64,000 nt of DNA from an uncultured Caldisericota bacterium. GTDB lineage: Bacteria; Caldisericota; Caldisericia; UBA6126. The notes below the pieces were generated by a model. That model was not told the origin of the DNA, searched no databases, and worked only from the letters and a program-made list of their open reading frames with translations. Of this stretch, positions 11,364 through 62,833 are shown one piece after another. Position numbers and translations under genes: made by a program. The stretch covers positions 4,434-68,433 of the forward strand of contig CAYRBR010000002.1 of assembly GCA_964422555.1 (NCBI GenBank), in the 5' to 3' direction. Numbering within the stretch: position 1 is the stretch's first letter; each line of letters begins with the position of its first letter.

Positions 11364-12532
11364 GGATCATTCATGTTGGAAGCCTCTTTATTGGTCTTCA
11401 GAACCTTGGGAAGTCAACTGATAATAGCTACATGTTTTCGCAAGTTCAAGACTATTTTGACTACCTGTCATTTATTGCTGAATATGTAGATAAGAACTCT
11501 ATCGATGTGGTTTTATTCTCTGGTAATTTATTCTTTTCTTCACACCCAAGCCCTTTCTTACAATGGAAATTAGGGAATGTGTTGGAAAAAATGCACAAAA
11601 GTGATATAAAAATTTTTATACTCCAGAACCAATATGATCAATCAGACTCATACTCTTCCAGTAGTGAAATATGTAGTTATTCTATGCTAGATAAATACGC
11701 TAGATTTGTTAACAAACCTAGCGTTCATCCAATCAAAAGAAAAAAGGATTCTATTCAAATTGCCTTTTTACCCTTTAAAAGAAGTCCCTTCTCAACAGAC
11801 TCTAAAAACCTTGGTAGTAACAAAACGAAAGAGTTTGAAAAGGAGCTTAAAATACTCTCTTCACAAATTGACTCGGATATACCATCCTTTCTTATGACAC
11901 AAGCTTTAATCGACAATGTTAAACAATACTACCTGTTTAATTCTCTGCCAGAAATCTCTTCATCAATATCTGATTCTCTCCCGTTTCACTATATCTCTCT
12001 TTCGAATTTTCCATTTTCAAAGATAATTCCTGTTCATCGTCGAAACAACCAAACTGTGTTTTATTCTTATCCTGGTACATTGGGTGAAATCGAATTTGAA
12101 GATTCTTTAATTGATCGCGGTTTTATTTTGTATGACACAAAAAACAACAATTCTCCTGTTTTCGTACCTAATGCAGCAAAACGTCACACTGCTCTTATTC
12201 GGGTTCATGGACAAAACGAAGAAGAGGTATGGGAAAAACTAAATGAAGAATTTCTTTTAAACGATTACAGAGACTATATTACCACAATTGTCGTTCAAGC
12301 TCCCTTAAGAATAAATCCAAACGTAATTCGTGATAAGTATTCTGAGCATTGTTACTACATACAAAGAATCGTATCGCAAAAAGAGATTGTTAAATGTGAA
12401 GAAACGTATAACCAAATTGGCTTTTCAGATTTTTTAAGATCCTATTTAACCTTACAAGATATTCAAGACAAGGACTTTTTAGAAGATGTTTATAAACAAG
12501 GCAACCAGTATTACGAGAAGACAAAACTGTGA
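11360..12532 (+). CDS. sbcD: SbcD/Mre11-like protein with degenerate phosphoesterase motifs (predicted non-catalytic)
   Basis: ATGA overlap with the minE stop. The N-terminus MRIIHVGSLFIG parallels SbcD MR-I-HTSD-HLG but lacks the D and H metal ligands. GD becomes GN in motif II (VVLFSGNLFF). GNHD becomes QNQYD. Confidence 0.55.
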   Translation: MRIIHVGSLFIGLQNLGKSTDNSYMFSQVQDYFDYLSFIAEYVDKNSIDVVLFSGNLFFSSHPSPFLQWKLGNVLEKMHKSDIKIFILQNQYDQSDSYSSSSEICSYSMLDKYARFVNKPSVHPIKRKKDSIQIAFLPFKRSPFSTDSKNLGSNKTKEFEKELKILSSQIDSDIPSFLMTQALIDNVKQYYLFNSLPEISSSISDSLPFHYISLSNFPFSKIIPVHRRNNQTVFYSYPGTLGEIEFEDSLIDRGFILYDTKNNNSPVFVPNAAKRHTALIRVHGQNEEEVWEKLNEEFLLNDYRDYITTIVVQAPLRINPNVIRDKYSEHCYYIQRIVSQKEIVKCEETYNQIGFSDFLRSYLTLQDIQDKDFLEDVYKQGNQYYEKTKL

Positions 12533-15510
12533 TGATTACACCAAATTTCATTGAAATCAATAATTTCCTCTCGTATGTAGGTACACATAAATTATCCTTC
12601 CAAGAAAATTCTTACTATCTAGTCTCTGGTAAAAATGGAGCTGGCAAAAGTGCTTTAGCTGATACAATGATTTTTTCTTTGTTTGGTATTCTTCGTTCAG
12701 AATATTCTCCCTTCAATAATCAAATTCTTTCTTTTGGAGCTGAATCAGGCTATATCCAGTTTGATTTCTTTTTAAATGACACTTTGTGGAGAATTCGACG
12801 TGATTTTTCTACTGATTCAACAAATAATCACATTCAGTTTAAAAAACGCCAAAATACATACTGGAAGAACTATACTCTTTCTGAAGATTCCTTGACTCAA
12901 CAGCAAATCTTAGATACTTTAAAAATAACTCCTCAACAGTTTTTCATGACTTTTTTTAAGACAAACAGTTATCCCTCTTTCTATGAGTTTCTTTCACTTA
13001 ATAATGTTGATAAGTATACTGCTGTATCGCGATTTCTTAATGTACCCTCTTTTGATTTGATTCAAAAATTTGTAGAGAAAGATCTCCAAGAATACGCAAT
13101 AAGGAAAGAATATCTTTCTACTTTTATAAACCAGAATAAATCGAAAATAAAAGAAAAAAAGCAACTTGAAAAAATCCTTCATGAGAGTAAAGATAAGTTG
13201 GCTAAAACGAAAGAACAGATACTACATTTAAAGCAAGATATCGATCAACAAGATTTACTCTGTAAAGAAATTGAAAATGGCCTTCAAAATAAAAAAATAT
13301 TGATGGAACGAATTCAGTATCTACGAAACAACCAGAATGAAAAGCGAACTGAAAGACAACTTCTTTCTGAAAAATTAAATGAATTGCAAAATGCAATTAA
13401 AATCCAGCATGAAATTGAAAATGGGTATAAACAGTTATCTGACTTGATCGTTTTAAACAAAAAATACAATGAAAATTTTGAACAGAGAGAAAGAATTCAA
13501 CATCAAATTGATGAAATTCAAACTATTCTAGATGATCAAGAAATCGCATTAAAGAAAAAGGCAAATGATCTAAAACAAGCTGAAGATGAATACTCTGAAA
13601 AGAAAAAATATCTTCCTGATTTAAATTTAAAAATGCAAGCAATCCAATCCAAGTTGAAAGAAATGGAAAAAGTTCGCTATCAAGTTCAAAAACTTGAAAA
13701 AGAAAAAGAATCCATTCAAAAGGAAATTGATGTCCTTAATGAAAAAATTGGGATGTTGAAAAAAGAAAGGATCATCATACGAGAAAAGAAAGAAAAAATC
13801 TATAAAGAAGTAGTCTCTTTCGAACAAATTATTCAAAAAGATCAAAGTACGAAAAAGAAATTACAAATCCTAAAAGAGAATAAAGAGAAGGTTAAATTAT
13901 TACAAGACCAAATTGATTTAGAAGAAAAAAAGAAGAACATTTTATCTCAACAAAATGAACGTTTCGAGTCCATGATAGAAACGCTAAACGAGAAGATCAG
14001 TATTTTCCACATAACGGATGAATTTGAAAATCGATGTCCAGCTTGCGGTACTCCACTTACAAAAGAAAAAGAATCTGAAATACTCTTGAACTACAAGCGT
14101 GATTTAGAGATGAAAAAATCTACATTAAATAGAAACCTGAATACGCTCCAAAAAATGGAAAACAAGATAGTCTCACTGAACAGTGATAAAAATGTTCTTT
14201 CTTCGGATTTTCATCTTGAGGAAGATTTACAACAACAATATTTGCAAATACAAGAATGTAAAGCCTCTATAAGAACTAAAACCGAGAATCACTACCGAAC
14301 AAAACTTCAGGAATCGAAAATTGAAGAAGAGCTTAACAAAACTACTTACTCGATAAACAATCTAAAAAGTCGTTTGAAAACAGCTGATCAGCAATTCATA
14401 AATTTAACACTTGTCCTTTCTAACCAAACTGTATTGGAAAACAATTTAGGAGATCTTCACAAACAAATTTCAGAAGCTTTAGAGGTAGACCAAAAATTAC
14501 CCAGTATTCTAAAACAATTAATTGAAACAAAGCGGAAAATTGAAACAAAAAACTATTCTCAAGACAATTGGAAAAAACTAAATGAACTTAAAAAAAGAAT
14601 CCTCTCTATTCCTTACAGTGTAGCTGAACACAATCAAATTAAGAATAAAATTAATCAACTTAAATATTTCGAAACCGAAAAAAGAGTAATGGATGAGAAA
14701 TTAATTGAAAAAGACAGTGTTTTGAACCAATTATCCTCTGTCGATAAAAAACTTGGTTCTCTTCAATCTGAGATTGATAAAAATATTGATTCAATAAAAG
14801 GTATACCCTACCAACAAAAGGATCTCTATGCTGAACAAGATAAGAAAAAATGTTTAGTTTCAAATAGAGAGCAATCTGAACTCGAAGAAAAAGATTTGGA
14901 AATAGAGATTTCGAAGTTTGAACAAAATATGGAAGACATTCACCGACTACAAATAAAATATGGTGAAGCACTTGAAGAATTTAATACATACCTTAAAAAA
15001 GAAAAAAGTGTTACAATATGCAGAGAACTCTTAAGAGAAACCGCTATAGGAGTTTTTATCGTTTCCCGTATTATACCCTCTCTTGAATTTTATGTTAACG
15101 GTATTTTATCTTCTCTCACAGACAACGATATACAGGCATCCGTTTCTTTGACGAAAAGTAAAAATAATAATCAACAACTTACAGTAAAGATTATTGAGAG
15201 CGGTCATTCAATCTCATATGAATACCTAAGTACCGCAGAAAAGTTTAAAGTTAACATTGCATTTCGGCTTGCCTTTTCTAAACTACTCTCAGATCATCCT
15301 GAAAACAATAGGGTGTTTTTATGTATTGATGACGATTTTGGTTCATTAGATTTAAATAGTAAAAATCAAATAATTCTCTCTTTGTTAAAGTTAAAGAAAT
15401 CCATCAATACACTTTTATTGATAACACATTCAAACGTGTTCCAGAATTGCTTTGACTACAGAATTCGTATTCAGAAAACCAGAAATACTTCATCTTTTTC
15501 ATATTATTAA
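12532..15510 (+). CDS. sbcC: SbcC/Rad50-like SMC-family ATPase with central zinc hook
   Basis: TGATG overlap with the sbcD stop. Walker A GKNGAGKS and long coiled-coil arms. CPACG hook near the midpoint (14044-14058). C-terminal signature-like LSTAEK, Walker-B-like FLCIDDD, D-loop SLD, H-loop LLITHS. Confidence 0.75.
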   Translation: MITPNFIEINNFLSYVGTHKLSFQENSYYLVSGKNGAGKSALADTMIFSLFGILRSEYSPFNNQILSFGAESGYIQFDFFLNDTLWRIRRDFSTDSTNNHIQFKKRQNTYWKNYTLSEDSLTQQQILDTLKITPQQFFMTFFKTNSYPSFYEFLSLNNVDKYTAVSRFLNVPSFDLIQKFVEKDLQEYAIRKEYLSTFINQNKSKIKEKKQLEKILHESKDKLAKTKEQILHLKQDIDQQDLLCKEIENGLQNKKILMERIQYLRNNQNEKRTERQLLSEKLNELQNAIKIQHEIENGYKQLSDLIVLNKKYNENFEQRERIQHQIDEIQTILDDQEIALKKKANDLKQAEDEYSEKKKYLPDLNLKMQAIQSKLKEMEKVRYQVQKLEKEKESIQKEIDVLNEKIGMLKKERIIIREKKEKIYKEVVSFEQIIQKDQSTKKKLQILKENKEKVKLLQDQIDLEEKKKNILSQQNERFESMIETLNEKISIFHITDEFENRCPACGTPLTKEKESEILLNYKRDLEMKKSTLNRNLNTLQKMENKIVSLNSDKNVLSSDFHLEEDLQQQYLQIQECKASIRTKTENHYRTKLQESKIEEELNKTTYSINNLKSRLKTADQQFINLTLVLSNQTVLENNLGDLHKQISEALEVDQKLPSILKQLIETKRKIETKNYSQDNWKKLNELKKRILSIPYSVAEHNQIKNKINQLKYFETEKRVMDEKLIEKDSVLNQLSSVDKKLGSLQSEIDKNIDSIKGIPYQQKDLYAEQDKKKCLVSNREQSELEEKDLEIEISKFEQNMEDIHRLQIKYGEALEEFNTYLKKEKSVTICRELLRETAIGVFIVSRIIPSLEFYVNGILSSLTDNDIQASVSLTKSKNNNQQLTVKIIESGHSISYEYLSTAEKFKVNIAFRLAFSKLLSDHPENNRVFLCIDDDFGSLDLNSKNQIILSLLKLKKSINTLLLITHSNVFQNCFDYRIRIQKTRNTSSFSYY

Positions 15511-22534: not shown

Positions 22535-24223
22535 TTATAGGGAAATATTCTTATGTATTGTAAAAATCTCTAATTCGTAACCTTTTTCTCCAGACACGAG
22601 AAATAAAAATTCATTATCTTTATTAGAAACATAAAAAACTAGGGTAGTAGAATTCTCTTGTGTGTCTGAAAGCAATCCGTAAAATTCGGGTTCATTGTTA
22701 CTATTTAGCTCATACACAAGCCAATCAATCTGATTGTTGTTTTGAACTCGTAAAAGAAAATGGGATTCGGAAGAGTATAACAACGAGACTGGAGCTGTAG
22801 GTAGGGAATAATTGGATGGCAAAAGAATATTCTCTCTTACATCGCCGGTAGCAAGATCTACAATTGTTAGATTAATTTGCGTATCATCTTGATCGTGCAC
22901 ACGAATTTGATATAAATCATTCCAAAAAGTCTTAATCTGTGAAAACTCTAAATTCCTATTCCAATGTATCTTCCCAGTATTTAAATCTAGACATATCAAA
23001 CTTGTATCAGATGTTTCCACATAAAGTTCATTTGGTTTAGACTCAAATATGGAATATCTACATTGAACTCCATATTTTTTTTCAAATGGTCCAAGAATGG
23101 AATTAATCTCTTTTTCCCACATGATCTTTCCGGTTTCTTTATTAAATGCCACAATCGAGTATCTGGTATCCATCCTACCAGTATTAATAATCATAGTAGG
23201 AGTTTCAAAAAAGGTAGATTGGAAGTGAACTTCAACCTGACTATCATAACGATATTCAGCAAGTACCTTTCCAGTTACTGGATGAATTCGATAAGCTAAG
23301 GGCTCACCTTCATCAGATGAAGGTATTAGCAAAGATTGGTCGTCCAAAATGATAAAATTCCGATAAAAGTCAGATACATATATGTCATCGCCAGGTTTCA
23401 ATATTGAAGATAAAGACCATAACTGAACACCACTCTGTGGATCAACACCAATCAGATTTTCATCTTTTGTAAACAAAACAACCGATGGAGAAAATCCAAG
23501 GAACGTTTCATTCTGATTAGCTAACTTTCTTTCCCATAAAGAAGTTCCAGTCTTTGCATCATACCCAAACACATATCCCTCTCTTTTAGTTTGATTAAAC
23601 TCCATCCTTGCAACGATATCATTATTGACAGGAAAATAATAATCTAAACCAACCGAAGAAAGTGGTTTCGCCCACAATTCTTTCGCATTTTCCTTAACTA
23701 AACAAAACACTGCTTCTTGATCTTTGCATAGAAAGTATTCTGAAGAAGATCCGATAAACTCTTTGTTAATCAGAAAAGAACTGCTTTCAAGCACGCTCTT
23801 ATCTTCAAGATCAATCTTTGTAAATCCTGCCTTCCCGGAATTTACAAAGATTCTATCACTAGTCCAGGTTGAATTATATTGCGAAGGTGGGCCCATTATG
23901 GCAGGATAAGAGAACAGTCTACTACGCTTTAAAACATCCTTACTATTAACAACAAGTTCTTCCTCGTTCCAATCATTCGCCTGATCGGAAGATTTTGAAT
24001 TGTCAGTCTTGCCTAAGTCACTTCCAGAATTATCTGTACCTTCTATACCAGAATTGCTACTATTCTCCTGCTTATCATTAGAAATAGATTCGTTTTGGGG
24101 AGTTTTATCAGGATTTGTGTCCTGTTTGCAAGCCAAGAATGAACAAGAAAAGAAAAACACAAGCATGAGGATAGCAATTATTCTCATAACGATAGGAAGA
24201 AAACCACTCTTCGGATTATTCAT
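22535..24223 (-). CDS. PQQ-like beta-propeller repeat lipoprotein
   Basis: Signal peptide with Cys (FFFSCSFLAC). Repeated D/N-x-x-TGK-x-x-W motifs: AKTGTSLWER, PQSGVQLWSL, KETGKIMWEK, LNTGKIHWNR, LATGDV. Confidence 0.7.
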   Translation of the reverse strand: MNNPKSGFLPIVMRIIAILMLVFFFSCSFLACKQDTNPDKTPQNESISNDKQENSSNSGIEGTDNSGSDLGKTDNSKSSDQANDWNEEELVVNSKDVLKRSRLFSYPAIMGPPSQYNSTWTSDRIFVNSGKAGFTKIDLEDKSVLESSSFLINKEFIGSSSEYFLCKDQEAVFCLVKENAKELWAKPLSSVGLDYYFPVNNDIVARMEFNQTKREGYVFGYDAKTGTSLWERKLANQNETFLGFSPSVVLFTKDENLIGVDPQSGVQLWSLSSILKPGDDIYVSDFYRNFIILDDQSLLIPSSDEGEPLAYRIHPVTGKVLAEYRYDSQVEVHFQSTFFETPTMIINTGRMDTRYSIVAFNKETGKIMWEKEINSILGPFEKKYGVQCRYSIFESKPNELYVETSDTSLICLDLNTGKIHWNRNLEFSQIKTFWNDLYQIRVHDQDDTQINLTIVDLATGDVRENILLPSNYSLPTAPVSLLYSSESHFLLRVQNNNQIDWLVYELNSNNEPEFYGLLSDTQENSTTLVFYVSNKDNEFLFLVSGEKGYELEIFTIHKNISL

Positions 24224-24236
24224 TAACGTTTCCTTA

Positions 24237-24746
24237 TTAACTTTCGGTAGTAGGTGGTGTAAATGTTCGACTACTTAACTCTCTATCGAGCATAAGTAAA
24301 CCACGCCCATCATTTTGAACCAATTCTAATTCTTGTACAACTTTTCCAACGTTATCTTCTTCTTCAACCTGTTCATCCACAAACCAATTAAGCATCGTTC
24401 TGCTAGCATAGTCTTTTTCTTCTTCAGCAACAGCAACCAGATCGTTAATACAAGCAGTAATGTGTTTTTCATGCTCTAGTGAAGCCTTAAATGCATCAAG
24501 AGGGGAATCCCATGACATTTTAGGTTCTTGGATTGCCATGAGTTTCACTCTCCCACCTCTCTCACAAATATGGTTAAAAAATTTGCTAGCATGGAATAAT
24601 TCCTCTTGTGCTTGAACATTCATCCAAGAAGCAAAACCAGCTAATCCGATTGACTCAAAATAAGCTCTAATTGATTGATATAGATAAGCTGAAAAAACTT
24701 CTTCATTTATTTGTTTGTTAAAAGAATCTTCAATTTTTTTATTCAT
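24237..24746 (-). CDS. Ferritin-like iron-storage protein
   Basis: 169 aa. Ferritin di-iron ligand pattern (EEVFSAYLYQSIRAY…QAQEELFHASKFFNHI…EHEKHIT). Confidence 0.8.
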   Translation of the reverse strand: MNKKIEDSFNKQINEEVFSAYLYQSIRAYFESIGLAGFASWMNVQAQEELFHASKFFNHICERGGRVKLMAIQEPKMSWDSPLDAFKASLEHEKHITACINDLVAVAEEEKDYASRTMLNWFVDEQVEEEDNVGKVVQELELVQNDGRGLLMLDRELSSRTFTPPTTES

Positions 24747-24771
24747 ACAGTCCTCCGATAATAGTTAAAGA

Positions 24772-25155
24772 TTAGAGTTTTGTTTCCCACAAACCATGAA
24801 TGTTACAAAAAGCAATAACAGATCCACCATTTTTAGGTTTACAAAAGACAGCTTCGGCAACTTTTTGGTCTTTAACTTCTTTTCTAACTACATATCCATC
24901 AGTACTTCTAAACTCAATCCATTCAATATGGTGTTTCTCTTCCATAGGATGGGGTACTTCCCCAATTTTAACCACCATTTCGTTTTCTTTGAGAACAATT
25001 ACAGGCTTATGCTTTTCGTTTCCGGTATCTTCAGTTTTAGATGTATACTCCTTCATTGGTTTACCACAACATACAAGCTCTCCTGGACCCCCACGAAGAG
25101 TTTCAACGACATTTCCGCAAATCTCGCATTCATAAATGTAACCTTTTTTGGCCAT
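24772..25155 (-). CDS. dfx: Desulfoferrodoxin (2Fe superoxide reductase)
   Basis: N-terminal desulforedoxin CEICGN…CCGKPM. SOR domain His/Cys ligands (HKPV…HPMEEKHHIEW…CNIHGLWE). ATG at 25155 follows GGAGG; the upstream extension in the ORF track is unlikely. Confidence 0.85.
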   Translation of the reverse strand: MAKKGYIYECEICGNVVETLRGGPGELVCCGKPMKEYTSKTEDTGNEKHKPVIVLKENEMVVKIGEVPHPMEEKHHIEWIEFRSTDGYVVRKEVKDQKVAEAVFCKPKNGGSVIAFCNIHGLWETKL

Positions 25156-25168
25156 CAACAACCTCCAT

Positions 25169-25594
25169 TCAAGTATTTTGTAAGGAATCAACAAACACAT
25201 TTGCTCTTTGAAGTACATATCGATCGTTTCCGTGTTTTAGATAAGATAGAGCTTTTTCCCCCGGAAGCCATTTTGATTGATCGTGTTCTTGGAAAAGAAA
25301 CTGAATTTTCTTTTCATTTGTTTTTGCTAGAAAAAAAACAACCTCTTTAACGCAGTCATTGTAGGGAGAATAAAAAACAGTTTCTCTAAAACCAGGGACA
25401 AACATAAGAGAACGAAGACCTACTTCTTCATAAATCTCGCGTCTTGCTGTATCATATTCAGATTCATTCTTTTCGACATGACCTTTAACTAAACCCCAAT
25501 ATTGAGAATGATTCTTGTATCTCACAACAAGAAACAAAATCTGTTTTTTCTCTAATCGATAAATAATACTTCCACAAGATTTTTCAAATCTCAT
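25169..25594 (-). CDS. NUDIX hydrolase
   Basis: Nudix box GHVEKNESEYDTARREIYEEVGL (Gx5Ex7REUxEExGU). Start at 25594 (MRFEKSCGSIIY) is preferred over the longer ORF. Confidence 0.75.
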   Translation of the reverse strand: MRFEKSCGSIIYRLEKKQILFLVVRYKNHSQYWGLVKGHVEKNESEYDTARREIYEEVGLRSLMFVPGFRETVFYSPYNDCVKEVVFFLAKTNEKKIQFLFQEHDQSKWLPGEKALSYLKHGNDRYVLQRANVFVDSLQNT

Positions 25595-25645
25595 AATTAT
25601 ATTGTATATTGAAAATGACTGAAAATAAACCAATGGAGGTTTAAG

Positions 25646-28600
25646 GTGAAATTTTATAATCAAATTGCATTATTCTGCTTAACAGTTTTACTTCTTTTTC
25701 AACCCGCACAGATTTGTTTTGCCATTTCTCCATCTTCTAAGACTTCTTCTGTGCCATTCGTATGCTATAATTTTTCAGATGAATGGGAACAAATTGCAAG
25801 GAGTTCAAAATATTATCGAGTGATATGTAAGTTAACACAACAATCTCTTATTCAGGCAATTAATGCAAGCAATAATACATTATCTTGTCAAGATAAATCT
25901 TCAACAATACTCTCTTCTTTACACCAAGAACACATGAATTTTCTTCATTCTATACATCCTTCCATCTCGTATACAATTTTAGGTGAATGGACTAAAACAT
26001 ATAATGGTTTTGCACTTTTCTTAAGAGGTTATTCCATTCCTACATTAACAAAAAATCAATATATAGAAAAAATATATTTGGATAAGGATGAGTACTTTCC
26101 TGTTCGAGATATCGCAATAGAGACAATACAAAGAAATGAAATCAACGATTTTGAGGTTGAGGAATACTCGCTGCCTATCCTTCCAAATAAAAACACTCGT
26201 ATTGGTATTGTTGATACAGGTATCGATTATAACCATGACGATTTCTATCCAAAAGGTTATAAAGGAGAACAAACAAAAGTACAAGGAGGGTGGGACTGTT
26301 ACCACCTTTACGAAGAAGAAAAAGAAAAGGAAGGCTTCCGACCAGGTGATCCTGACCCTATGGATGATAATTATCGTACTGGTGGACATGGCACTCATGT
26401 AGCAGGAATTGCAGCGGGAAATAATCCTTCTCGGTCTAATTTACAAGGAATATGCCCAGATGCCACTTTATTTGCTTATAAAGTCTTTCCATCAAATGTA
26501 AGTGGAGGAGCTCCATCATACACAATCATAAGTGCTGCAGAATATGCGACACAAGATCAGTGCTCTGTGATTAATTTATCTCTCGGACATGAGGGAGAAA
26601 TTCCATCTATTGAAGAAAACAGTCCGTACTATGACTCTCTTCGCAATGCGCGGAGAGCAGGAGTAATGGTAATTGCATCAGCTGGTAATGATGGAAGTCG
26701 AACTGAATTCAATCCGTGGCCTTTGCATGCTCCTGGAGTTTTTGATTCAATTCTACAAGTTGGAGCTACCGACGATCGCGTAATTCAGCCCTTTCGGATC
26801 TGCAATCCCGTATCTCGAAAAGTTTACTTTGGACAATCATCTCGTTTCGCTCCCCCTTTTGATTTTACTTTTAATGGCAAAGAGATAGTATATTGTGGCT
26901 TTGGTTCCGAAAATGAATGCAGTAAAATTGATCTTAAGGATAAAATTGCACTAATAAAAAGAGGACCTAAAGATAATGGTATTTCATTCCACGATAAAAA
27001 CCTAAATGCAAAATATGCAGGGGCTTCTGGATGTATTATATTTAACTACAATTCAAGCAGTTTTAGCCCCAACTTATTTCCAGAGGACGAAGAGAATCCT
27101 TATTCAGAGAACTTTATTCCTTGTATGATGATTAGTTTAGAGTTAGAAACTGAACTACAACCAGTTGTGGATGGATTGGGGTATATTGAGTTTTTAGATA
27201 AACAGTCTTCCGTTGCTAGTTATACTTCTGCTGGTCCATGCTACTCAGCAGACAATGGGTTTTTTAAACCAGATTTATGTGCCCCAGGTACTTCCATTTA
27301 TAGTTCAGTCCCAAATTTTAAAAAGAAATCACTAAGTAGTTGGTCAAAAAAACAGGGAACATCAATGTCAACCCCTGTAATTACTGGATGTGCAGCGTTG
27401 TTACGAAGCAGGTATCCCTCTTTTCCTATAGAGGCAATTGAATCCCTGTTAATGAATACAGCTGATTTGATCAAAAATCCTCTTAATAACAATTATGTTT
27501 CGTTTCACTATCAGGGTGCAGGTGAAGTAAATCTGAAGAATGCCATGGAAACTCCTGTTTATGCTACTCCAAAATCATTCATAATTGCAGAAGAAAAAAG
27601 AGATGAACCTATAACTATTACCTTGCATAATTTCTCTAAAGAACCTATATCGATCAACATTAGTACCGAAATTGTTTCGAATAAAAAATACGCAAATGCC
27701 TTAGTGGGTGTTTTTGATAAACCATTTGTCACTATCAATCCTGAGTCAGATGAAACCATTCAATGTTGGTTATATCAAAATAATGAAATCCAGGAAGACT
27801 TTTTGGAGGGAGTTGTTTGGTTCGAAGTAATTGGCAACTCTTTCCAAGCAGATAAATTATTGCACATTCCATTTATTTACAGGACAAAGACCTTATTGAA
27901 AATTAACAACCCAATTTATGACGTGCAATACTCACTTTCATCTTTAGACATGAATAAAGAAAACTTTGGTTTTATTGGATTTTCTCTAGCGAGTGGATCT
28001 ATTTATCGAGATGTTTTTTTTGATAAAGAAACGAATGAGATCATACGAAAAAAAGACAAAGTAAGAAATCTTGCAGAACAAGTATATGTTAATATCTACG
28101 ATCAGAACGACAACAAAATTGACTCTCTTTTTATTGGTGATAACATTCCCATCGGGAATTACCAGATACTTTGGAATGGACTCGATTTATATCACAAACA
28201 ATTCCTCCCAAACGGTCAATACTACTTTCAAGTTTCGATTCCCTTACATTATCGTTATTACTCTGTCGTACAAAACGAGGATGAATCAGAACAAATTACA
28301 TATACAAAATCAGAAGATCAATTTCTCAAAAGCGAAAAAGTAAGTTTTGAGATAATAAACTCTACGTTACCTCCATTTCCTGAATTTTGCCTTTGCAGCC
28401 CTCAAAAAGTTAAAAACAGTAGCGTATTTGTTATCGAATTTTTATTAAAGAAACCCTTTGAGGGAAGTAGTGATGTAACCGTCACATTAGACCCCCTACT
28501 TGAAGTAATCGAATTGAATCCCTCCCCTTCCTCTGAAATTGCTTATCAAAAAGAAACTAATTCTATTCGGATGAAAACTAATATCCATATATCCCAAAAA

Positions 28601-28933
28601 AACAGTCGTTATTCTTTTGGTCAAATTTATGTTAAAAACACATTACTAGAAACTGAAAACTATCTACCCTCTTTTATGATAGAGGGTACCTTATCCTACA
28701 AGTATCCATTGAAAGATGTTATGCATAGAATATATACACCAAACATCACCACTTTACATTTTTCTCTCGGTGATTTTAATCATAATGATCATATTGATTC
28801 TGAAGACTATCGTCTAATACAGGGACAGTTTGGTAACACCGACTCAGATGAATCTTGGAACCCCGAGTATGATATTTTTCAAGATGGGACTATCGATGTG
28901 AAAGATTTATGGTATATGGTTAAACAACAATAA
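25646..28933 (+). CDS. Secreted subtilisin-family (S8) serine peptidase with inserted PA domain, Ig-like/FlgD-like region and C-terminal dockerin-like module
   Basis: GTG start 6 nt after GGAGG, plus a signal peptide. Catalytic triad contexts IGIVDTGIDYNHDDF, HGTHVAGIAAG, GTSMSTPVITGCAALL. PA-like insert (ALIKRGPKDNG…GASGCIIFN). C-terminus carries DFNHNDHIDSED and DIFQDGTIDVKD Ca-loop pairs. Confidence 0.85.
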   Translation: MKFYNQIALFCLTVLLLFQPAQICFAISPSSKTSSVPFVCYNFSDEWEQIARSSKYYRVICKLTQQSLIQAINASNNTLSCQDKSSTILSSLHQEHMNFLHSIHPSISYTILGEWTKTYNGFALFLRGYSIPTLTKNQYIEKIYLDKDEYFPVRDIAIETIQRNEINDFEVEEYSLPILPNKNTRIGIVDTGIDYNHDDFYPKGYKGEQTKVQGGWDCYHLYEEEKEKEGFRPGDPDPMDDNYRTGGHGTHVAGIAAGNNPSRSNLQGICPDATLFAYKVFPSNVSGGAPSYTIISAAEYATQDQCSVINLSLGHEGEIPSIEENSPYYDSLRNARRAGVMVIASAGNDGSRTEFNPWPLHAPGVFDSILQVGATDDRVIQPFRICNPVSRKVYFGQSSRFAPPFDFTFNGKEIVYCGFGSENECSKIDLKDKIALIKRGPKDNGISFHDKNLNAKYAGASGCIIFNYNSSSFSPNLFPEDEENPYSENFIPCMMISLELETELQPVVDGLGYIEFLDKQSSVASYTSAGPCYSADNGFFKPDLCAPGTSIYSSVPNFKKKSLSSWSKKQGTSMSTPVITGCAALLRSRYPSFPIEAIESLLMNTADLIKNPLNNNYVSFHYQGAGEVNLKNAMETPVYATPKSFIIAEEKRDEPITITLHNFSKEPISINISTEIVSNKKYANALVGVFDKPFVTINPESDETIQCWLYQNNEIQEDFLEGVVWFEVIGNSFQADKLLHIPFIYRTKTLLKINNPIYDVQYSLSSLDMNKENFGFIGFSLASGSIYRDVFFDKETNEIIRKKDKVRNLAEQVYVNIYDQNDNKIDSLFIGDNIPIGNYQILWNGLDLYHKQFLPNGQYYFQVSIPLHYRYYSVVQNEDESEQITYTKSEDQFLKSEKVSFEIINSTLPPFPEFCLCSPQKVKNSSVFVIEFLLKKPFEGSSDVTVTLDPLLEVIELNPSPSSEIAYQKETNSIRMKTNIHISQKNSRYSFGQIYVKNTLLETENYLPSFMIEGTLSYKYPLKDVMHRIYTPNITTLHFSLGDFNHNDHIDSEDYRLIQGQFGNTDSDESWNPEYDIFQDGTIDVKDLWYMVKQQ

Positions 28934-54094: not shown

Positions 54095-57000
54095 TTAAAC
54101 AACAGATCCCTCAGCCATTTTTCTGTAGGTTTCATATCGTTCTTTAGCATCTTCTTCAGCTTTATCAAATAAATCTTGTGCAATTTCAGGAAAAGATTTT
54201 TCTAGAGAAGTATATCGTACTTCACTCTTAATAAATTCCTGGAAAGAAGCGGTAGGTTCTTTCGAATCAAGAATAAATGGATTCTTTCCTTCTTCCTTTA
54301 ACGTTGGATTAAATCGATAAAGATGCCAGTAACCAGCTTCAACAGCACGTTTTTCTTGTTCCTGGGACTTACCCATTCCAAGCTTCAACCCGTGGTTGAT
54401 ACATGGCGAATACGCAATAATTAAAGATGGACCTGGATAAGCTTCTGCTTCAGACATCGCTTTCATAAGTTGATTCTTGTTTGCCCCCATAGCAACTTGG
54501 GCTACATATACATAGCCATAGGACATCAACATTCTTCCCAAATCTTTTTTCTTAGTTCTTTTACCAGCCGCAGCAAATTTAGCTACAGCAGCTTCAGGAG
54601 TAGACTTGGACGACTGTCCACCTGTATTAGAGTATACTTCAGTATCAAACACCAGTATGTTTATATCTCTACCAGATGCCAAAACATGGTCTAGGCCACC
54701 ATAACCAATATCATAGGACCATCCGTCTCCACCCCAAGACCATACAGAACGTTTTACAAGATAGTCTTTGCGTTGAGAAATCTGATCCATAATCTCTCCA
54801 ACTCTTCCTTGGAAAGATGAACCTAACAACTTAAGAATTTCCATCGAATAAAGCTTCGATTCTTTTGCTATCTCTTTATTCTGAATCCAATTCTCAAATA
54901 CACTCTTCATTTCAGGATCAATGTCAAGAGTTATTAACTCTTCCATTAATACTTTTAAACGGTTTCGTATTTGATCTACTGCAAGTAACATACCGAAACC
55001 ATACTCAGCATTATCTTCAAACAAAGAATTAGCCCAAGCAGGTCCTTTTCCATTTGCATTTTTACAGAATGGGATAGAAGGAGCACTAGCTCCCCAAATT
55101 GAAGAACAACCTGTTGCGTTTGCAATTAACATTCTATCGCCAAACAGCTGGGTTGCCAACTTAGCATAGGGTGTTTCACCACAACCAGCACAAGCTCCAG
55201 AAAACTCAAACAACGGTTTTACAAATTGAGAACCTTTGACAGTATGAATATTTACTTCATCAAGTTTTTCAGAAACAGATTCTACAGCCCAATTAAAGTT
55301 CTCTTGTTCGCTTAATTGTGTGTCAAGTGGTTTCATTGTAAGAGCTTTATCTTTCGCAGGACAGATATCTGCACAGTTTCCACAGCCGGTACAGTCAAGA
55401 GGGTCAATTTGGATAACAAACTGATATTTATCCAAGCCTTTTCCTTTACCAGGAATAGTTCTAAAACCATCAGGCGATTGACTTGATTCTTTTTCATCTA
55501 ACAAGAAAGGTCTGATTGCAGCATGTGGACAAACAAATGCACACTGATTACATTGGATACAGTTTTCTGGAATCCAATGTGGAACATTAATTGCTATTCC
55601 TCTTTTTTCATATGCACTTGTGCCTGATGGAAATTCACCGTTTTCTCTAGTCGTGAAAGCACTTACAGGTAGGTTATCTCCTTTTTGGAGATTCATTGGT
55701 TCAAGTATGTTTTTAATGAAAGCAGGAACATCGTCATTGTTAGATGATTTTTCATCGTCAACAGATAGTGAAGACCATTCAGAAGGGATTTCAATCTGTT
55801 TTATATCTTCTATTCCTTTGTCAACAGCAGCATAATTCATATTTACAATCTTCTCTCCTTTTTTCCCATAAGTATCTTTAATGGCTTTTTTAAGGAGTTC
55901 GATCGCCTTTTCTAATGGTAACACACCAGATAATTTGAAGAATACAGCCTGCATTATCATGTTGATTCTGTTGCCTAATCCAATTTCTTCGGCAATTTTC
56001 GTTGCATTAATTGTGTAAAATTTAATGTTGTTCTTGGCTAAATGACATTTCACTGAAGAAGGCAACATATCACTCAGTTCAGATTCATCCCATTTACAAT
56101 TTAATACAAATATACCTTCTTTTTTTAATCCTTCTAAAACATCATAGTGACCAATATAGGATTGATTGTGACATGCAATATAATCTGCTTCGTGAATAAG
56201 ATAAGTTGATTTAATAGGTTTATCACCAAAACGTAAATGAGATACCGTTACTCCACCTGATTTTTTTGAATCATATGCAAAGTAACCCTGAGCATACATG
56301 TCAGTATTATCACCTATAATTTTAATTGCATTCTTATTAGCACCAACTGTTCCATCAGAACCCAATCCCCAGAATTTACAACGGATTGTACCTTTTGGAG
56401 CAGTTACAATACGTTCAGTTTCGACCAAGGAGGTATTTGTTACATCATCGTCAATACCAATCGTAAATTGGTTCTTCGGAGTATCTAGCTTAAGATTATC
56501 AAATACAGCCTTAATTTGGGAGGGAGTTGTATCTTTAGAACCCAACCCATATCTACCACCAACAATAATTGGTGCATGTTCATTGCGATAGAATACGTTT
56601 CTTATATCCAGATATAGTGGTTCCCCATTTGATCCAGCTTCCTTTGTCCGGTCAAGAACAGCAATTTTCTTAACTGTTTTAGGAAGGGCAGACAAAAAAT
56701 GTTTTGCACTAAAAGGTCTATAAAGACGAACTTTGATAAGTCCCACTTTTTCCCCTTTAGATAGCAAATAATCAACTGTTTCTTCCATTGTTTCAGTCGC
56801 TGATCCCATTGCTATAATAACTCTTTCAGCATCAGGATCACCGTAATAGTCAAACAAATGGTACGAACGTCCTGTAATCTTTGATACTTTTTCCATATTC
56901 TTTTCCACAATTTCGGGTAAAGCATCATAGAATAAATTAGCAGATTCTTTAGCTTGGAAATATATATCAGGATTTTGTGCAGTACCCATAATTTTCGGAT

Positions 57001-57634
57001 GATCTGGGTTTAATGCGTTGTCACGGAATTTTTTTACAGCATCAAAATCAAACATTGATCTTAATTCATCGTCGGAATAGATTTCAATCTTTTGGATTTC
57101 ATGCGAGGATCGGAATCCATCAAAAAAATGAACAAATGGTAATCTACCTTGAACACTGGATAGATGAGCAACAGCTGCTAGATCCATAACTTCCTGGATT
57201 CCACCTGAAGCTAACAAAGCAAAACCAGTTTGTCTTGTAGCCATTACATCAGAATGATCTCCAAAAATTGAAAGTGCATGAGCAGCAACAGCTCTAGCTG
57301 AAACATGGAATACGCCTGGTAGTAGTTCTCCAGCAATTTTATACATATTAGGTATCATTAACAACAAACCTTGTGATGCAGTAAAGGTAGATGTTAAAGC
57401 ACCTGCTGCTAAAGAGCCGTGTACTGCACCAGAAGCTCCAGCTTCTGATTGCATTTCAACAACATCAACAGTTTGTCCAAACAGATTCTTTCTTCCATTG
57501 GCAGCCCAAGAATCCATATGTTCTGCCATCGGGGAAGAAGGAGTAATTGGAAAAATAGACGCAACATCAGTAAATGCATATGCAACATGAGCGGCAGCAG
57601 TATTGCCGTCCATGGATTTCATTTTTCTTGCCAT
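54095..57634 (-). CDS. por: Pyruvate:ferredoxin (flavodoxin) oxidoreductase, single-chain PFOR
   Basis: 1179 aa. N-terminus MDGNTAAAHVAYAFTDVASIFPITPSS. Ferredoxin-like CIQCNQCAFVCP and CTGCGNCADICP. TPP domain GGDGWSYDIGYGGLDH. Confidence 0.95.
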   Translation of the reverse strand: MARKMKSMDGNTAAAHVAYAFTDVASIFPITPSSPMAEHMDSWAANGRKNLFGQTVDVVEMQSEAGASGAVHGSLAAGALTSTFTASQGLLLMIPNMYKIAGELLPGVFHVSARAVAAHALSIFGDHSDVMATRQTGFALLASGGIQEVMDLAAVAHLSSVQGRLPFVHFFDGFRSSHEIQKIEIYSDDELRSMFDFDAVKKFRDNALNPDHPKIMGTAQNPDIYFQAKESANLFYDALPEIVEKNMEKVSKITGRSYHLFDYYGDPDAERVIIAMGSATETMEETVDYLLSKGEKVGLIKVRLYRPFSAKHFLSALPKTVKKIAVLDRTKEAGSNGEPLYLDIRNVFYRNEHAPIIVGGRYGLGSKDTTPSQIKAVFDNLKLDTPKNQFTIGIDDDVTNTSLVETERIVTAPKGTIRCKFWGLGSDGTVGANKNAIKIIGDNTDMYAQGYFAYDSKKSGGVTVSHLRFGDKPIKSTYLIHEADYIACHNQSYIGHYDVLEGLKKEGIFVLNCKWDESELSDMLPSSVKCHLAKNNIKFYTINATKIAEEIGLGNRINMIMQAVFFKLSGVLPLEKAIELLKKAIKDTYGKKGEKIVNMNYAAVDKGIEDIKQIEIPSEWSSLSVDDEKSSNNDDVPAFIKNILEPMNLQKGDNLPVSAFTTRENGEFPSGTSAYEKRGIAINVPHWIPENCIQCNQCAFVCPHAAIRPFLLDEKESSQSPDGFRTIPGKGKGLDKYQFVIQIDPLDCTGCGNCADICPAKDKALTMKPLDTQLSEQENFNWAVESVSEKLDEVNIHTVKGSQFVKPLFEFSGACAGCGETPYAKLATQLFGDRMLIANATGCSSIWGASAPSIPFCKNANGKGPAWANSLFEDNAEYGFGMLLAVDQIRNRLKVLMEELITLDIDPEMKSVFENWIQNKEIAKESKLYSMEILKLLGSSFQGRVGEIMDQISQRKDYLVKRSVWSWGGDGWSYDIGYGGLDHVLASGRDINILVFDTEVYSNTGGQSSKSTPEAAVAKFAAAGKRTKKKDLGRMLMSYGYVYVAQVAMGANKNQLMKAMSEAEAYPGPSLIIAYSPCINHGLKLGMGKSQEQEKRAVEAGYWHLYRFNPTLKEEGKNPFILDSKEPTASFQEFIKSEVRYTSLEKSFPEIAQDLFDKAEEDAKERYETYRKMAEGSVV

Positions 57635-57721
57635 GACTTACCCCACTTTACATAAAGAGATTTTCAAGCTTTACTATACAATGAAACAAGGAATACACAA
57701 CCAGAAAAAACAACAGAAAAG

Positions 57722-62674: not shown

Positions 62675-62833
62675 GGATCATCCTTGTTTAATTGCTTCTA
62701 TGATCATATCCATAGTAATTGAATGAATTAGATTAGTCAATTGATAATTCGAGTTTCAGTTTCACATGCTAGAATCTTTTAAACAGATGATAGTTTTTCC
62801 TAATATTAGATTATAATTAATTGGAAGCAACCG

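What the first reader, a model, noticed from the sequence alone, without database searches (positions are those of the whole stretch)
25646..28933. 1095-aa subtilase with a PA domain and a C-terminal dockerin-like double calcium-loop module
The catalytic D/H/S contexts are canonical. The C-terminal ~55 residues carry two 12-residue EF-hand-like loops, DFNHNDHIDSED and DIFQDGTIDVKD (around 28770-28930), the hallmark of type-I dockerins. They are preceded by Ig-like/FlgD-like beta-sandwich sequence (NGQYYFQVS). A dockerin implies attachment to a cohesin-bearing scaffold or to the cell surface, which is unusual for a protease outside cellulosome producers.
Basis: partly seen in the sequence, partly recalled or inferred. 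Interest (0 to 1): 0.5.

Follow-up and report, generated by a model that had tools for sequence, protein, structure and literature searches.

The report
Secreted subtilase with cohesin–dockerin tail
This gene encodes a large secreted subtilisin-type protease from an uncultured Caldisericia bacterium whose tail carries both halves of a calcium-dependent protein "plug and socket" (a cohesin next to a dockerin), an arrangement already known from other non-cellulosomal enzymes, so it is a well-supported but fairly ordinary find.

Summary
ORF 25646-28933 (+) encodes 1095 aa, with a GGAGG ribosome-binding site 6 nt before the GTG start and a signal-peptide-like N-terminus. It has a Peptidase_S8 domain with an inserted PA domain. 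D190/H248/N348/S573 are invariant in 64 homologues. The two 12-residue loops sit exactly where stated.

On its own the tail scores just under Pfam's Dockerin_1 cut-off (22.4 vs 22.9 bits). Profiles built only from relatives recognise it at E 1e-13 and 3e-10. The family profile hits solved dockerins at E 2e-18. It is a real dockerin, although loop 2 has F at the third (ligand) position.

The closest solved relative is Bacillus Vpr, followed by the streptococcal C5a peptidases. I favour extracellular proteolysis with cohesin-dockerin self- or paralogue assembly, as in R. bromii Amy4; this is inferred. No partner lies in the window. Dockerin-bearing proteases are not unusual. New member of a known kind; interest about 0.3.

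The parts
25635..25639 (+). Shine-Dalgarno-like GGAGG, 6 nt upstream of the GTG start
   Evidence: read directly from the sequence
25646..28933 (+). complete coding sequence, 1095 aa plus stop; monocistronic, divergent from a NUDIX gene and convergent with a pseudouridine synthase gene
   Evidence: the same neighbours flank orthologue P0002
25646..25723 (+). signal-peptide-like N-terminus (residues 1-26, MKFYNQIALFCLTVLLLFQPAQICFA); the cleavage site is inferred
   Evidence: sequence features; AF2 helix 2-17 followed by a low-confidence stretch 18-43; M1 nearly invariant in the family. No signal-peptide predictor was available
25778..26086 (+). I9-like propeptide (about residues 45-147), followed by a low-confidence linker 148-181 where autoprocessing is expected
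   Evidence: AF2 beta-alpha-beta secondary structure and pLDDT; Inhibitor_I9 passes its cut-off at the same position in homologues P0050, P0051 and P0047; no Pfam hit in the query itself
26189..27496 (+). Peptidase_S8 catalytic domain (residues 182-617); D190 (26213-26215), H248 (26387-26389), oxyanion N348 (26687-26689), S573 (27362-27364)
   Evidence: Pfam E 5e-54; the four residues are invariant in 64 sequences; Bacillus Vpr 8jmw_A E 8e-45
26900..27142 (+). PA (protease-associated) domain inserted in the catalytic domain (residues 419-499)
   Evidence: Pfam PA E 4e-10, 40.1 bits against cut-off 23.9
27563..27940 (+). Fn3-like beta-sandwich (fn3_5-type, about residues 640-765)
   Evidence: Pfam fn3_5 weak in the query (15.4 bits) and 27.0 bits in P0066; clade-excluded family HMM 85.8 bits; AF2 all-beta with pLDDT about 90; alignment to C5a peptidases runs through this region
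27953..28330 (+). FlgD_ig-like beta-sandwich (about residues 770-895), contains NGQYYFQVS
   Evidence: Pfam FlgD_ig 810-864 E 8e-5; above cut-off in P0001; clade-excluded family HMM 64 bits
28358..28753 (+). cohesin-fold module (about residues 905-1036), diverged and about 14 residues shorter than in relatives
28766..28921 (+). dockerin module (residues 1041-1092): two loop-helix repeats
   Evidence: Pfam Dockerin_1 22.4 bits isolated; clade-excluded family HMMs 45.9 and 35 bits; family profile against solved dockerins E 1.7e-18
28772..28807 (+). calcium loop 1, DFNHNDHIDSED; positions 1, 3, 5, 9 and 12 carry the D/N consensus
28871..28906 (+). calcium loop 2, DIFQDGTIDVKD; position 3 is F (N or D in 62 of 69 family members, F only in the query and its six closest relatives)

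Best explanation
The gene encodes a secreted, Vpr/C5a-peptidase-like subtilase zymogen of a Caldisericia bacterium. Its order is signal peptide, I9-like propeptide, S8 catalytic domain with a PA insert, Fn3-like domain, FlgD_ig domain, cohesin, dockerin. After export and autocatalytic removal of the propeptide it degrades extracellular protein (inferred from the family). The cohesin and dockerin are joined by only a few residues and form one C-terminal cassette. I take this cassette to be a calcium-dependent protein-protein assembly device. The favoured mode is that the dockerin of one molecule plugs into the cohesin of another copy, or of a paralogue or another cohesin-bearing envelope protein. 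That would concentrate the protease in multimers near the cell, as shown experimentally for Ruminococcus bromii Amy4. Shown: the gene, the domains, the catalytic residues, family conservation and synteny. Inferred: secretion, propeptide processing, calcium binding and the binding partner. My probabilities are at least 0.9 for the architecture and about 0.45 for assembly with itself or a paralogue.
Against: There is no binding data. In the query clade both modules are the most diverged of the family. The cohesin carries a deletion of about 14 residues and scores only 8.5 bits against a profile of its relatives. Dockerin loop 2 has F where a calcium ligand (N/D) is expected, so the pair may be weakened or repurposed. 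A mirror-tree test found no excess cohesin-dockerin co-variation: partial r is 0.25, the same as the controls. The high pTM of the two-module model may mean the modules pack rigidly against each other in cis rather than binding in trans. Coordinates and PAE were not available to check. The rest of the genome could not be searched for other cohesins.
Confidence: 0.5

Rival explanations
1. The dockerin attaches the protease to a separate cohesin-bearing scaffold or cell-envelope protein encoded elsewhere in the genome. The in-cis cohesin then serves to recruit further dockerin proteins, as in an adaptor scaffoldin.
For: In Caldisericum sp. AR60 the gene directly downstream of the family member P0059 encodes a 1062-aa beta-propeller protein. 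It has a segment matching this family's cohesin HMM (E 2e-6), followed by Glucodextran_B and Cu_amine_oxidN1 domains. Family members P0071 and P0074 keep the cohesin (57-71 bits) but replace the dockerin with Glucodextran_B plus Cu_amine_oxidN1. P0074 sits in a cluster of five genes that share that C-terminal cassette, so they are possible anchored receptors. Cloacimonadota are proposed to dock S8 peptidases onto a scaffoldin (PMC8542988).
Against: Nothing of the kind lies in the 64 kb window or around the syntenic orthologue. The Pfam Cohesin model did not hit the AR60 neighbour at E <= 0.1. The candidate receptors are from distant relatives (24-28% identity). A profile search with the cohesin-dockerin alignment retrieved mainly fragments of this same family.
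Confidence: 0.28
2. The cohesin-dockerin pair is a fixed intramolecular structural unit, or a decaying remnant, in this clade. It acts as a calcium-stabilised stalk with no specific external partner.
For: The junction between the modules is very short and conserved (median 3 residues). pTM is 0.81 for the two-module model. The query clade has a truncated, strongly diverged cohesin and has lost a loop-2 ligand. There is no co-variation signal.
Against: Both modules are retained at full length in all seven members of the clade. Positions 1 and 12 of both loops are invariant across the family, and the dockerin is 52% identical within the clade. That argues for continued selection. F at position 3 is fixed in 7 of 7 clade members rather than being random decay. 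The fold is predicted with pLDDT above 90.
Confidence: 0.2
3. The two D-rich loops are a chance or generic EF-hand-like calcium site of a subtilase, not a dockerin.
For: Pfam Dockerin_1 is just below its gathering score (22.4 vs 22.9 bits). The isolated 68-aa tail (residues 1028-1095) also gives weak EF-hand_6 and EF-hand_7 matches.
Against: Clade-excluded profiles score 45.9 and 35 bits. The alignment to 68 family members is gapless, and 34 of 48 aligned members hit Dockerin_1 at E <= 1e-3. The family profile prefers solved dockerins (E 1.7e-18) over EF-hand proteins (E 2e-5 at best).
Confidence: 0.02

Closest known systems
Bacillus Vpr (minor extracellular serine protease; PDB 8jmw)
   Same: Best sequence match among solved structures (E 8e-45 over residues 111-654; Foldseek TM 0.70 normalised to Vpr). 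It shares the signal peptide, propeptide, S8 domain with PA insert and C-terminal beta-sandwich domains. JGI annotators call many family members 'Vpr'. Vpr is extracellular and self-assembles into active fibrils (PMC10657474).
   Different: Vpr is about 800 aa and has no cohesin or dockerin. Its fibrils are held together by its two 'assembly domains', not by a cohesin-dockerin plug. Identity is only about 18% in the structural alignment.
Streptococcal C5a peptidases ScpA/ScpB and cell-envelope proteinases (SpyCEP, lactocepin type)
   Same: Top whole-model fold matches (Foldseek E 2e-40 to 5e-33). Sequence matches extend through the Fn3-like domain (residues 246-760, E 2e-27). S8 + PA + Fn3 layout.
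   Different: Those enzymes are anchored by LPXTG/sortase. NCBIfam scores are far below their cut-offs (SGO_0316 family 101 against 1400). No LPXTG motif is present here; the tail is cohesin-dockerin.
Ruminococcus bromii Amy4 (GH13 amylase carrying both a cohesin and a dockerin)
   Same: It is an extracellular hydrolase with a cohesin and a C-terminal dockerin in one polypeptide. The cohesin binds its own dockerin, giving multimers (PMC4611034). It is the best functional analogy for the cassette.
   Different: The catalytic domain is unrelated (amylase). The modules in Amy4 are not immediately adjacent. R. bromii has additional scaffoldins (Sca2-4), whereas none is visible here.
Archaeoglobus fulgidus non-cellulosomal cohesin (PDB 2xdh) and other non-cellulosomal cohesin-dockerin proteins
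   Different: Sequence identity is 12-15%. My recollection, not checked here, is that the A. fulgidus protein has no protease domain.
Clostridium thermocellum S8 protease with a double dockerin (PDB 8x39/8x3a) and the Cloacimonadota dockerin-S8 peptidase
   Same: These are S8 peptidases bearing dockerins. 8x39_A matches the family profile at E 1.5e-8. The proposed role is anchoring the protease on cell-bound cohesins (PMC12484212, PMC8542988).
   Different: Those proteins carry two dockerins or a single dockerin and no cohesin. They belong to organisms with recognisable scaffoldins.

Membership tests
Subtilase, MEROPS/Pfam S8 (PF00082) | Profile match above the curated cut-off | tested here: met
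   183.9 bits against cut-off 21.8, E 5e-54, residues 182-617
Subtilase, MEROPS/Pfam S8 (PF00082) | Catalytic Asp-His-Ser in that order, plus the oxyanion Asn | tested here: met
   D190, H248, S573 and N348 are invariant in 64 aligned sequences; the motifs are read
Subtilase, MEROPS/Pfam S8 (PF00082) | Proteolytic activity | not testable with these tools
   needs an enzyme assay
PA-domain subtilases (Vpr / C5a peptidase / pyrolysin-like) | PA domain inserted between the catalytic His and Ser | tested here: met
   PA 40.1 bits against cut-off 23.9 at residues 419-499, inside the S8 domain 182-617
PA-domain subtilases (Vpr / C5a peptidase / pyrolysin-like) | Fn3-like domain(s) after the catalytic domain | tested here: inconclusive
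   fn3_5 scores 15.4 bits against cut-off 27.6 in the query. The family-level and structural matches are good
LPXTG-anchored cell-envelope proteinase (NCBIfam NF040553) | Curated whole-protein score and an LPXTG sorting signal | tested here: not met
   101 bits against cut-off 1400. The C-terminus is a dockerin, with no LPXTG motif
Dockerin (Pfam PF00404) | Profile match above the gathering score | tested here: inconclusive
   16.4 bits in the full protein and 22.4 bits for the isolated 68 aa, against cut-off 22.9. 34 of 48 aligned family members match at E <= 1e-3
Dockerin (Pfam PF00404) | Homology to bona fide dockerins shown independently of the query | tested here: met
   An HMM built from distant members with Pfam-recognised dockerins scores the query at 35 bits, E 3e-10. 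An HMM from all non-clade members scores it at 45.9 bits. The family profile matches 2y3n_B at E 1.7e-18
Dockerin (Pfam PF00404) | Duplicated segment of about 22 residues: a 12-residue loop with D/N at positions 1, 3, 5, 9 and D at 12, followed by a helix | tested here: inconclusive
   Loop 1 is fully canonical. Loop 2 has F at position 3. AF2 helices 1052-1059 and 1085-1094 follow each loop
Dockerin (Pfam PF00404) | Calcium-dependent binding to a cohesin | not testable with these tools
   needs ITC, ELISA or native PAGE with and without EDTA
Type I dockerin specifically | Groups with type I dockerins and binds type I cohesins | not tested
   No phylogeny was made. The best solved sequence match (2y3n_B) is from an entry titled a type II cohesin-dockerin complex, so the label is unsupported
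Cohesin (Pfam PF00963) | Profile match above the gathering score | tested here: not met
   No Cohesin hit in the query at E <= 1 or at E <= 1e-3 on the 216-aa segment. The positionally equivalent module passes in P0040 (31.9 bits), P0066, P0050, P0051, P0069 and P0047
Cohesin (Pfam PF00963) | Nine-stranded jelly-roll beta-sandwich of the cohesin fold | tested here: met
Cohesin (Pfam PF00963) | Sequence homology chain to recognised cohesins | tested here: inconclusive
   hhalign of the query clade against mid-distance members gives 95% probability, E 2e-8, but over the first 60 columns only. Mid against far members gives 97%, E 8e-11, over the full length. The clade-excluded HMM gives 8.5 bits
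Cellulosome / scaffoldin system | Multi-cohesin scaffoldin and dockerin-bearing glycoside hydrolases in the genome | tested here: inconclusive
   None is present in the 64 kb window or in the loci of relatives. The rest of the genome is not available

The most novel reading that the evidence does not exclude
Across Caldisericia, a Vpr-like subtilase has acquired a rigid, directly fused cohesin-dockerin cassette that drives head-to-tail self-polymerisation. The result would be proteolytically active extracellular chains or a proteolytic coat. That would be a second, independently evolved route to the 'protease fibril' state recently found for Bacillus Vpr. In this clade the remodelled pair (loop-2 N-to-F change, shortened cohesin) would represent a re-tuned specificity.
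Probability: 0.18. Interest if true: 0.55.

Novelty: new member of a known kind. Interest (0 to 1): 0.3.

Why it matters
If the cassette works as proposed, it is a compact, scaffold-free way of concentrating an extracellular protease. Such a device would be relevant to how peptide-fermenting anaerobes of a barely cultivated phylum feed. It may also be useful as a minimal self-assembling tag, since the A. fulgidus pair is already used in designer cellulosomes (PMC6394049, listed). As it stands, the finding mainly adds a conserved Caldisericia family to the known, widespread class of non-cellulosomal cohesin-dockerin proteins. It also corrects the idea that a dockerin on a protease is exceptional.

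Tried and rejected
1. A search for other cohesin, dockerin or S8 ORFs in all six frames of the window with family HMMs found none. The same scan of the 14-23 kb loci fetched around five relatives, P0002 (two contigs), P0031, P0059, P0015 and P0010, found only the AR60 neighbour.

2. A mirror-tree partial correlation of cohesin and dockerin distances gave 0.25, no higher than the control domain pairs. It is uninformative.

3. The search for related loci on genome contigs with the 48-sequence cohesin-dockerin alignment failed because no stretch was conserved enough. An exact 44-mer of the window is absent from genome contigs. The source genome was therefore not identified and no genome-wide partner search was possible.

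4. The search for homologous proteins with the cohesin-dockerin profile returned only 23 proteins, mostly fragments of this family or small stand-alone cohesin-dockerin proteins. It oddly did not return the known family members, so I did not draw counts from it.

5. The look-up of the C. exile protein P0064 found nothing on record.

6. The promoter and terminator scan gave no more sites than shuffled sequence for promoters. A TTTTCA-18-TATATT site at 25581-25610 is noted only as compatible.

7. Rfam and tRNA scans of the window were empty.

8. Model coordinates and PAE are not exposed. I could not check whether the dockerin sits on the canonical face of the cohesin in the AF2 models.

9. Peer et al. 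2009 (PMC3035643) is not held. Statements about that review rest on its citation in PMC8542988 and on my memory.
Full report
**Observation**

The ORF at 25646-28933 (+) is real and encodes 1095 aa from a GTG start. A GGAGG lies at 25635-25639, 6 nt upstream of the start. The N-terminus (MKFYNQIALFCLTVLLLFQPAQICFA) looks like a signal peptide. This is read from the sequence and from an AF2 helix at 2-17 followed by a disordered stretch; no signal-peptide predictor was available.

Pfam gives these matches:
- Peptidase_S8 at 182-617 (E 5e-54).
- PA at 419-499 (E 4e-10), inserted in the catalytic domain.
- A weak fn3_5 match at 654-743.
- Dockerin_1 at 1041-1089.

The two loops lie at residues 1043-1054 (nt 28772-28807) and 1076-1087 (nt 28871-28906). 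In a 64-sequence alignment D190, H248, N348 and S573 are invariant. So are the aspartates at positions 1 and 12 of both loops. The loop motif occurs nowhere else in the six-frame translation of the window.

**Is it a dockerin?**

Taken alone, the tail is borderline. It scores 22.4 bits (E 1.4e-4) against Pfam's gathering score of 22.9, and 16.4 bits within the full protein. Homology is nevertheless secure:
- The C-terminal 57 residues align without gaps to 68 relatives.
- An HMM built from all relatives outside the query's own clade scores the query at 45.9 bits (E 1e-13).
- An HMM built only from the most distant members, most of which carry Pfam-recognised dockerins, still gives 35 bits (E 3e-10).
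- 34 of 48 aligned members match Dockerin_1 at E <= 1e-3.
- The family profile hits solved dockerins at E 1.7e-18, against 2e-5 at best for EF-hand proteins.

Loop 1 has the full D/N ligand set. Loop 2 has phenylalanine at position 3, a feature fixed in the query and its six closest relatives and absent from the other 62. 'Type I' is not established, because the Pfam name covers all dockerins.

Between the FlgD-like domain and the dockerin lies a module of about 135 residues (about 905-1036). In relatives this module passes Pfam's Cohesin cut-off at the equivalent position: P0040 31.9 bits, then P0066, P0050, P0051, P0069 and P0047. The family profile matches solved cohesins (3l8q_A E 5.5e-6; the A. 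fulgidus cohesin 2xdh E 3.6e-4).

The caveat is that in the query's clade this module is strongly diverged:
- It carries a deletion of about 14 residues.
- It scores only 8.5 bits against a profile of the other members.
- Profile-profile comparison links it to them at 95% probability over the first 60 columns only, while the mid-distance and distant subfamilies link over the full length (97%, E 8e-11).

I therefore call it a cohesin-fold module that is homologous by position and structure. I do not call it a Pfam-grade cohesin.

**Family and context**

The nearest database protein is only 49% identical. The best hits that carry a source name are from Caldisericia MAGs, and the family reaches Caldisericum exile AZM16c01 (P0064). 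The locus of orthologue P0002 is syntenic with the window. Upstream are a PQQ-like propeller, ferritin, desulfoferrodoxin and NUDIX; downstream are a pseudouridine synthase and a V-type ATPase. This is a stable chromosomal gene among housekeeping genes, not an island.

Among the 120 best S8 homologues, 72 carry both cohesin and dockerin, 44 carry neither and only 4 carry one. The two modules abut, with a median gap of 3 residues. They therefore behave as one cassette.

An exhaustive profile search shows the same contiguous cassette at the C-termini of unrelated proteins. These include solute-binding proteins, a clostripain-type peptidase and PKD proteins. Small stand-alone cohesin-dockerin proteins also exist. 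One relative has two tandem paralogues that both carry the cassette.

**Closest known proteins**

By sequence, the closest solved protein is Bacillus Vpr (8jmw, E 8e-45). C5a peptidases, SpyCEP and other cell-envelope proteinases follow. The full-length AF2 model (pLDDT 83.9, pTM 0.79) gives the same picture, with plant subtilases added.

Low-confidence segments 18-43 and 148-181 bracket an I9-like propeptide. Inhibitor_I9 passes its cut-off in relatives. Vpr forms enzymatically active extracellular fibrils (PMC10657474).

Dockerin-bearing S8 peptidases are described in C. thermocellum (PDB 8x39/8x3a; PMC12484212) and in Cloacimonadota (PMC8542988). R. bromii Amy4 carries both a cohesin and a dockerin; its cohesin binds its own dockerin, giving multimers (PMC4611034).

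**Mechanism**

The best-supported reading is a secreted, self-processing subtilase for extracellular protein degradation. Its C-terminal cohesin-dockerin cassette mediates calcium-dependent assembly. I favour binding to other copies or to paralogues, because no other partner is visible in the window or near the orthologue. This step is inferred, not shown.

The main rival is docking on a separate cohesin-bearing envelope protein, and there are leads for it in distant relatives:
- In Caldisericum sp. AR60 the next gene encodes a beta-propeller protein with a cohesin-like segment (E 2e-6 to the family HMM), followed by Glucodextran_B and Cu_amine_oxidN1 domains.
- Family members P0071 and P0074 keep the cohesin but swap the dockerin for Glucodextran_B plus Cu_amine_oxidN1. 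P0074 lies within a cluster of five genes sharing that tail.

A second rival is that in this clade the remodelled pair is a rigid intramolecular unit or a remnant.

**Verdict**

The protein is a new member of a known kind, the non-cellulosomal cohesin-dockerin enzymes. It belongs to a family conserved in Caldisericia that I did not find described in the searchable literature. Interest is modest (0.3). It would rise if the cassette proved to drive self-polymerisation of the protease.

Noticed in passing
L004:13001-16189 (+) (Caldisericum sp. AR60, GCA_047785965.1), directly downstream of family member P0059: A 1062-aa NHL/SBBP beta-propeller protein. Residues 729-834 match this family's cohesin HMM (E 2e-6). 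Glucodextran_B (846-921) and Cu_amine_oxidN1 (954-1057) follow. It is a candidate anchored cohesin receptor for the neighbouring dockerin protease. Pfam Cohesin itself did not hit.
   Followed up: partly
L007:782-16302 (JGI 3300035659, contig Ga0373628_0005630); also L008: Five consecutive secreted-protein genes all end in a Glucodextran_B + Cu_amine_oxidN1 cassette. One is the subtilase P0074, which keeps the family cohesin (57 bits) but has this cassette in place of the dockerin. This points to swapping of the C-terminal module and a possible envelope-anchoring role for Cu_amine_oxidN1. Large Cu_amine_oxidN1 proteins also neighbour the protease in L005 and L006.
   Followed up: partly
L003:6712-13222 (+) (JGI 3300045051): Two tandem paralogues of the subtilase (P0043 1080 aa and P0031 1073 aa), each with its own cohesin and dockerin. 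Heteromeric cohesin-dockerin pairing between paralogues is therefore possible in some genomes. The window has only one copy.
   Followed up: partly
window 28871-28906 and 28358-28753: There are clade-specific changes in both partner modules. The query and its six closest relatives have F instead of N/D at ligand position 3 of dockerin loop 2. The same clade has a deletion of about 14 residues and strong divergence in the cohesin. Whether this reflects re-tuned specificity or decay is unresolved.
   Followed up: partly
window 57725-62677 (-): A 1651-aa sensor histidine kinase with many PAS/PAS_3/PAS_9 repeats, GAF domains, HisKA and HATPase_c. It is unusually long.
   Followed up: no
window 54098-57637 (-) and 12496-15507 (+): A single-polypeptide pyruvate:ferredoxin oxidoreductase (1180-aa stop-to-stop frame) and a Rad50/SbcC-like ATPase with a zinc-hook match (1004-aa stop-to-stop frame). 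These are ordinary housekeeping genes. The orthologous region of L001 also carries an SMC_N/AAA_23 ATPase gene.
   Followed up: no
window 22538-25663 (-): An oxidative-stress-type gene run lies upstream of the protease: a PQQ_2 beta-propeller protein, ferritin, desulfoferrodoxin and a NUDIX hydrolase. The same order is conserved next to the orthologue P0002, and partly next to P0015 and P0010.
   Followed up: partly
window, whole: No tRNA genes and no Rfam family at gathering threshold in 64 kb. The best protein match of the subtilase in 5.8 billion sequences is only 49% identical, and an exact 44-mer is absent from the GTDB species genomes. The source is therefore a lineage of Caldisericia not represented in those collections.
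   Followed up: partly
P0136, P0137, P0140: Small (233-260 aa) secreted proteins consisting only of a signal peptide, a cohesin, a linker (Pro-rich in P0136 and P0137) and a dockerin. They are minimal stand-alone versions of the cassette and could act as self-polymerising or adaptor units.
   Followed up: no
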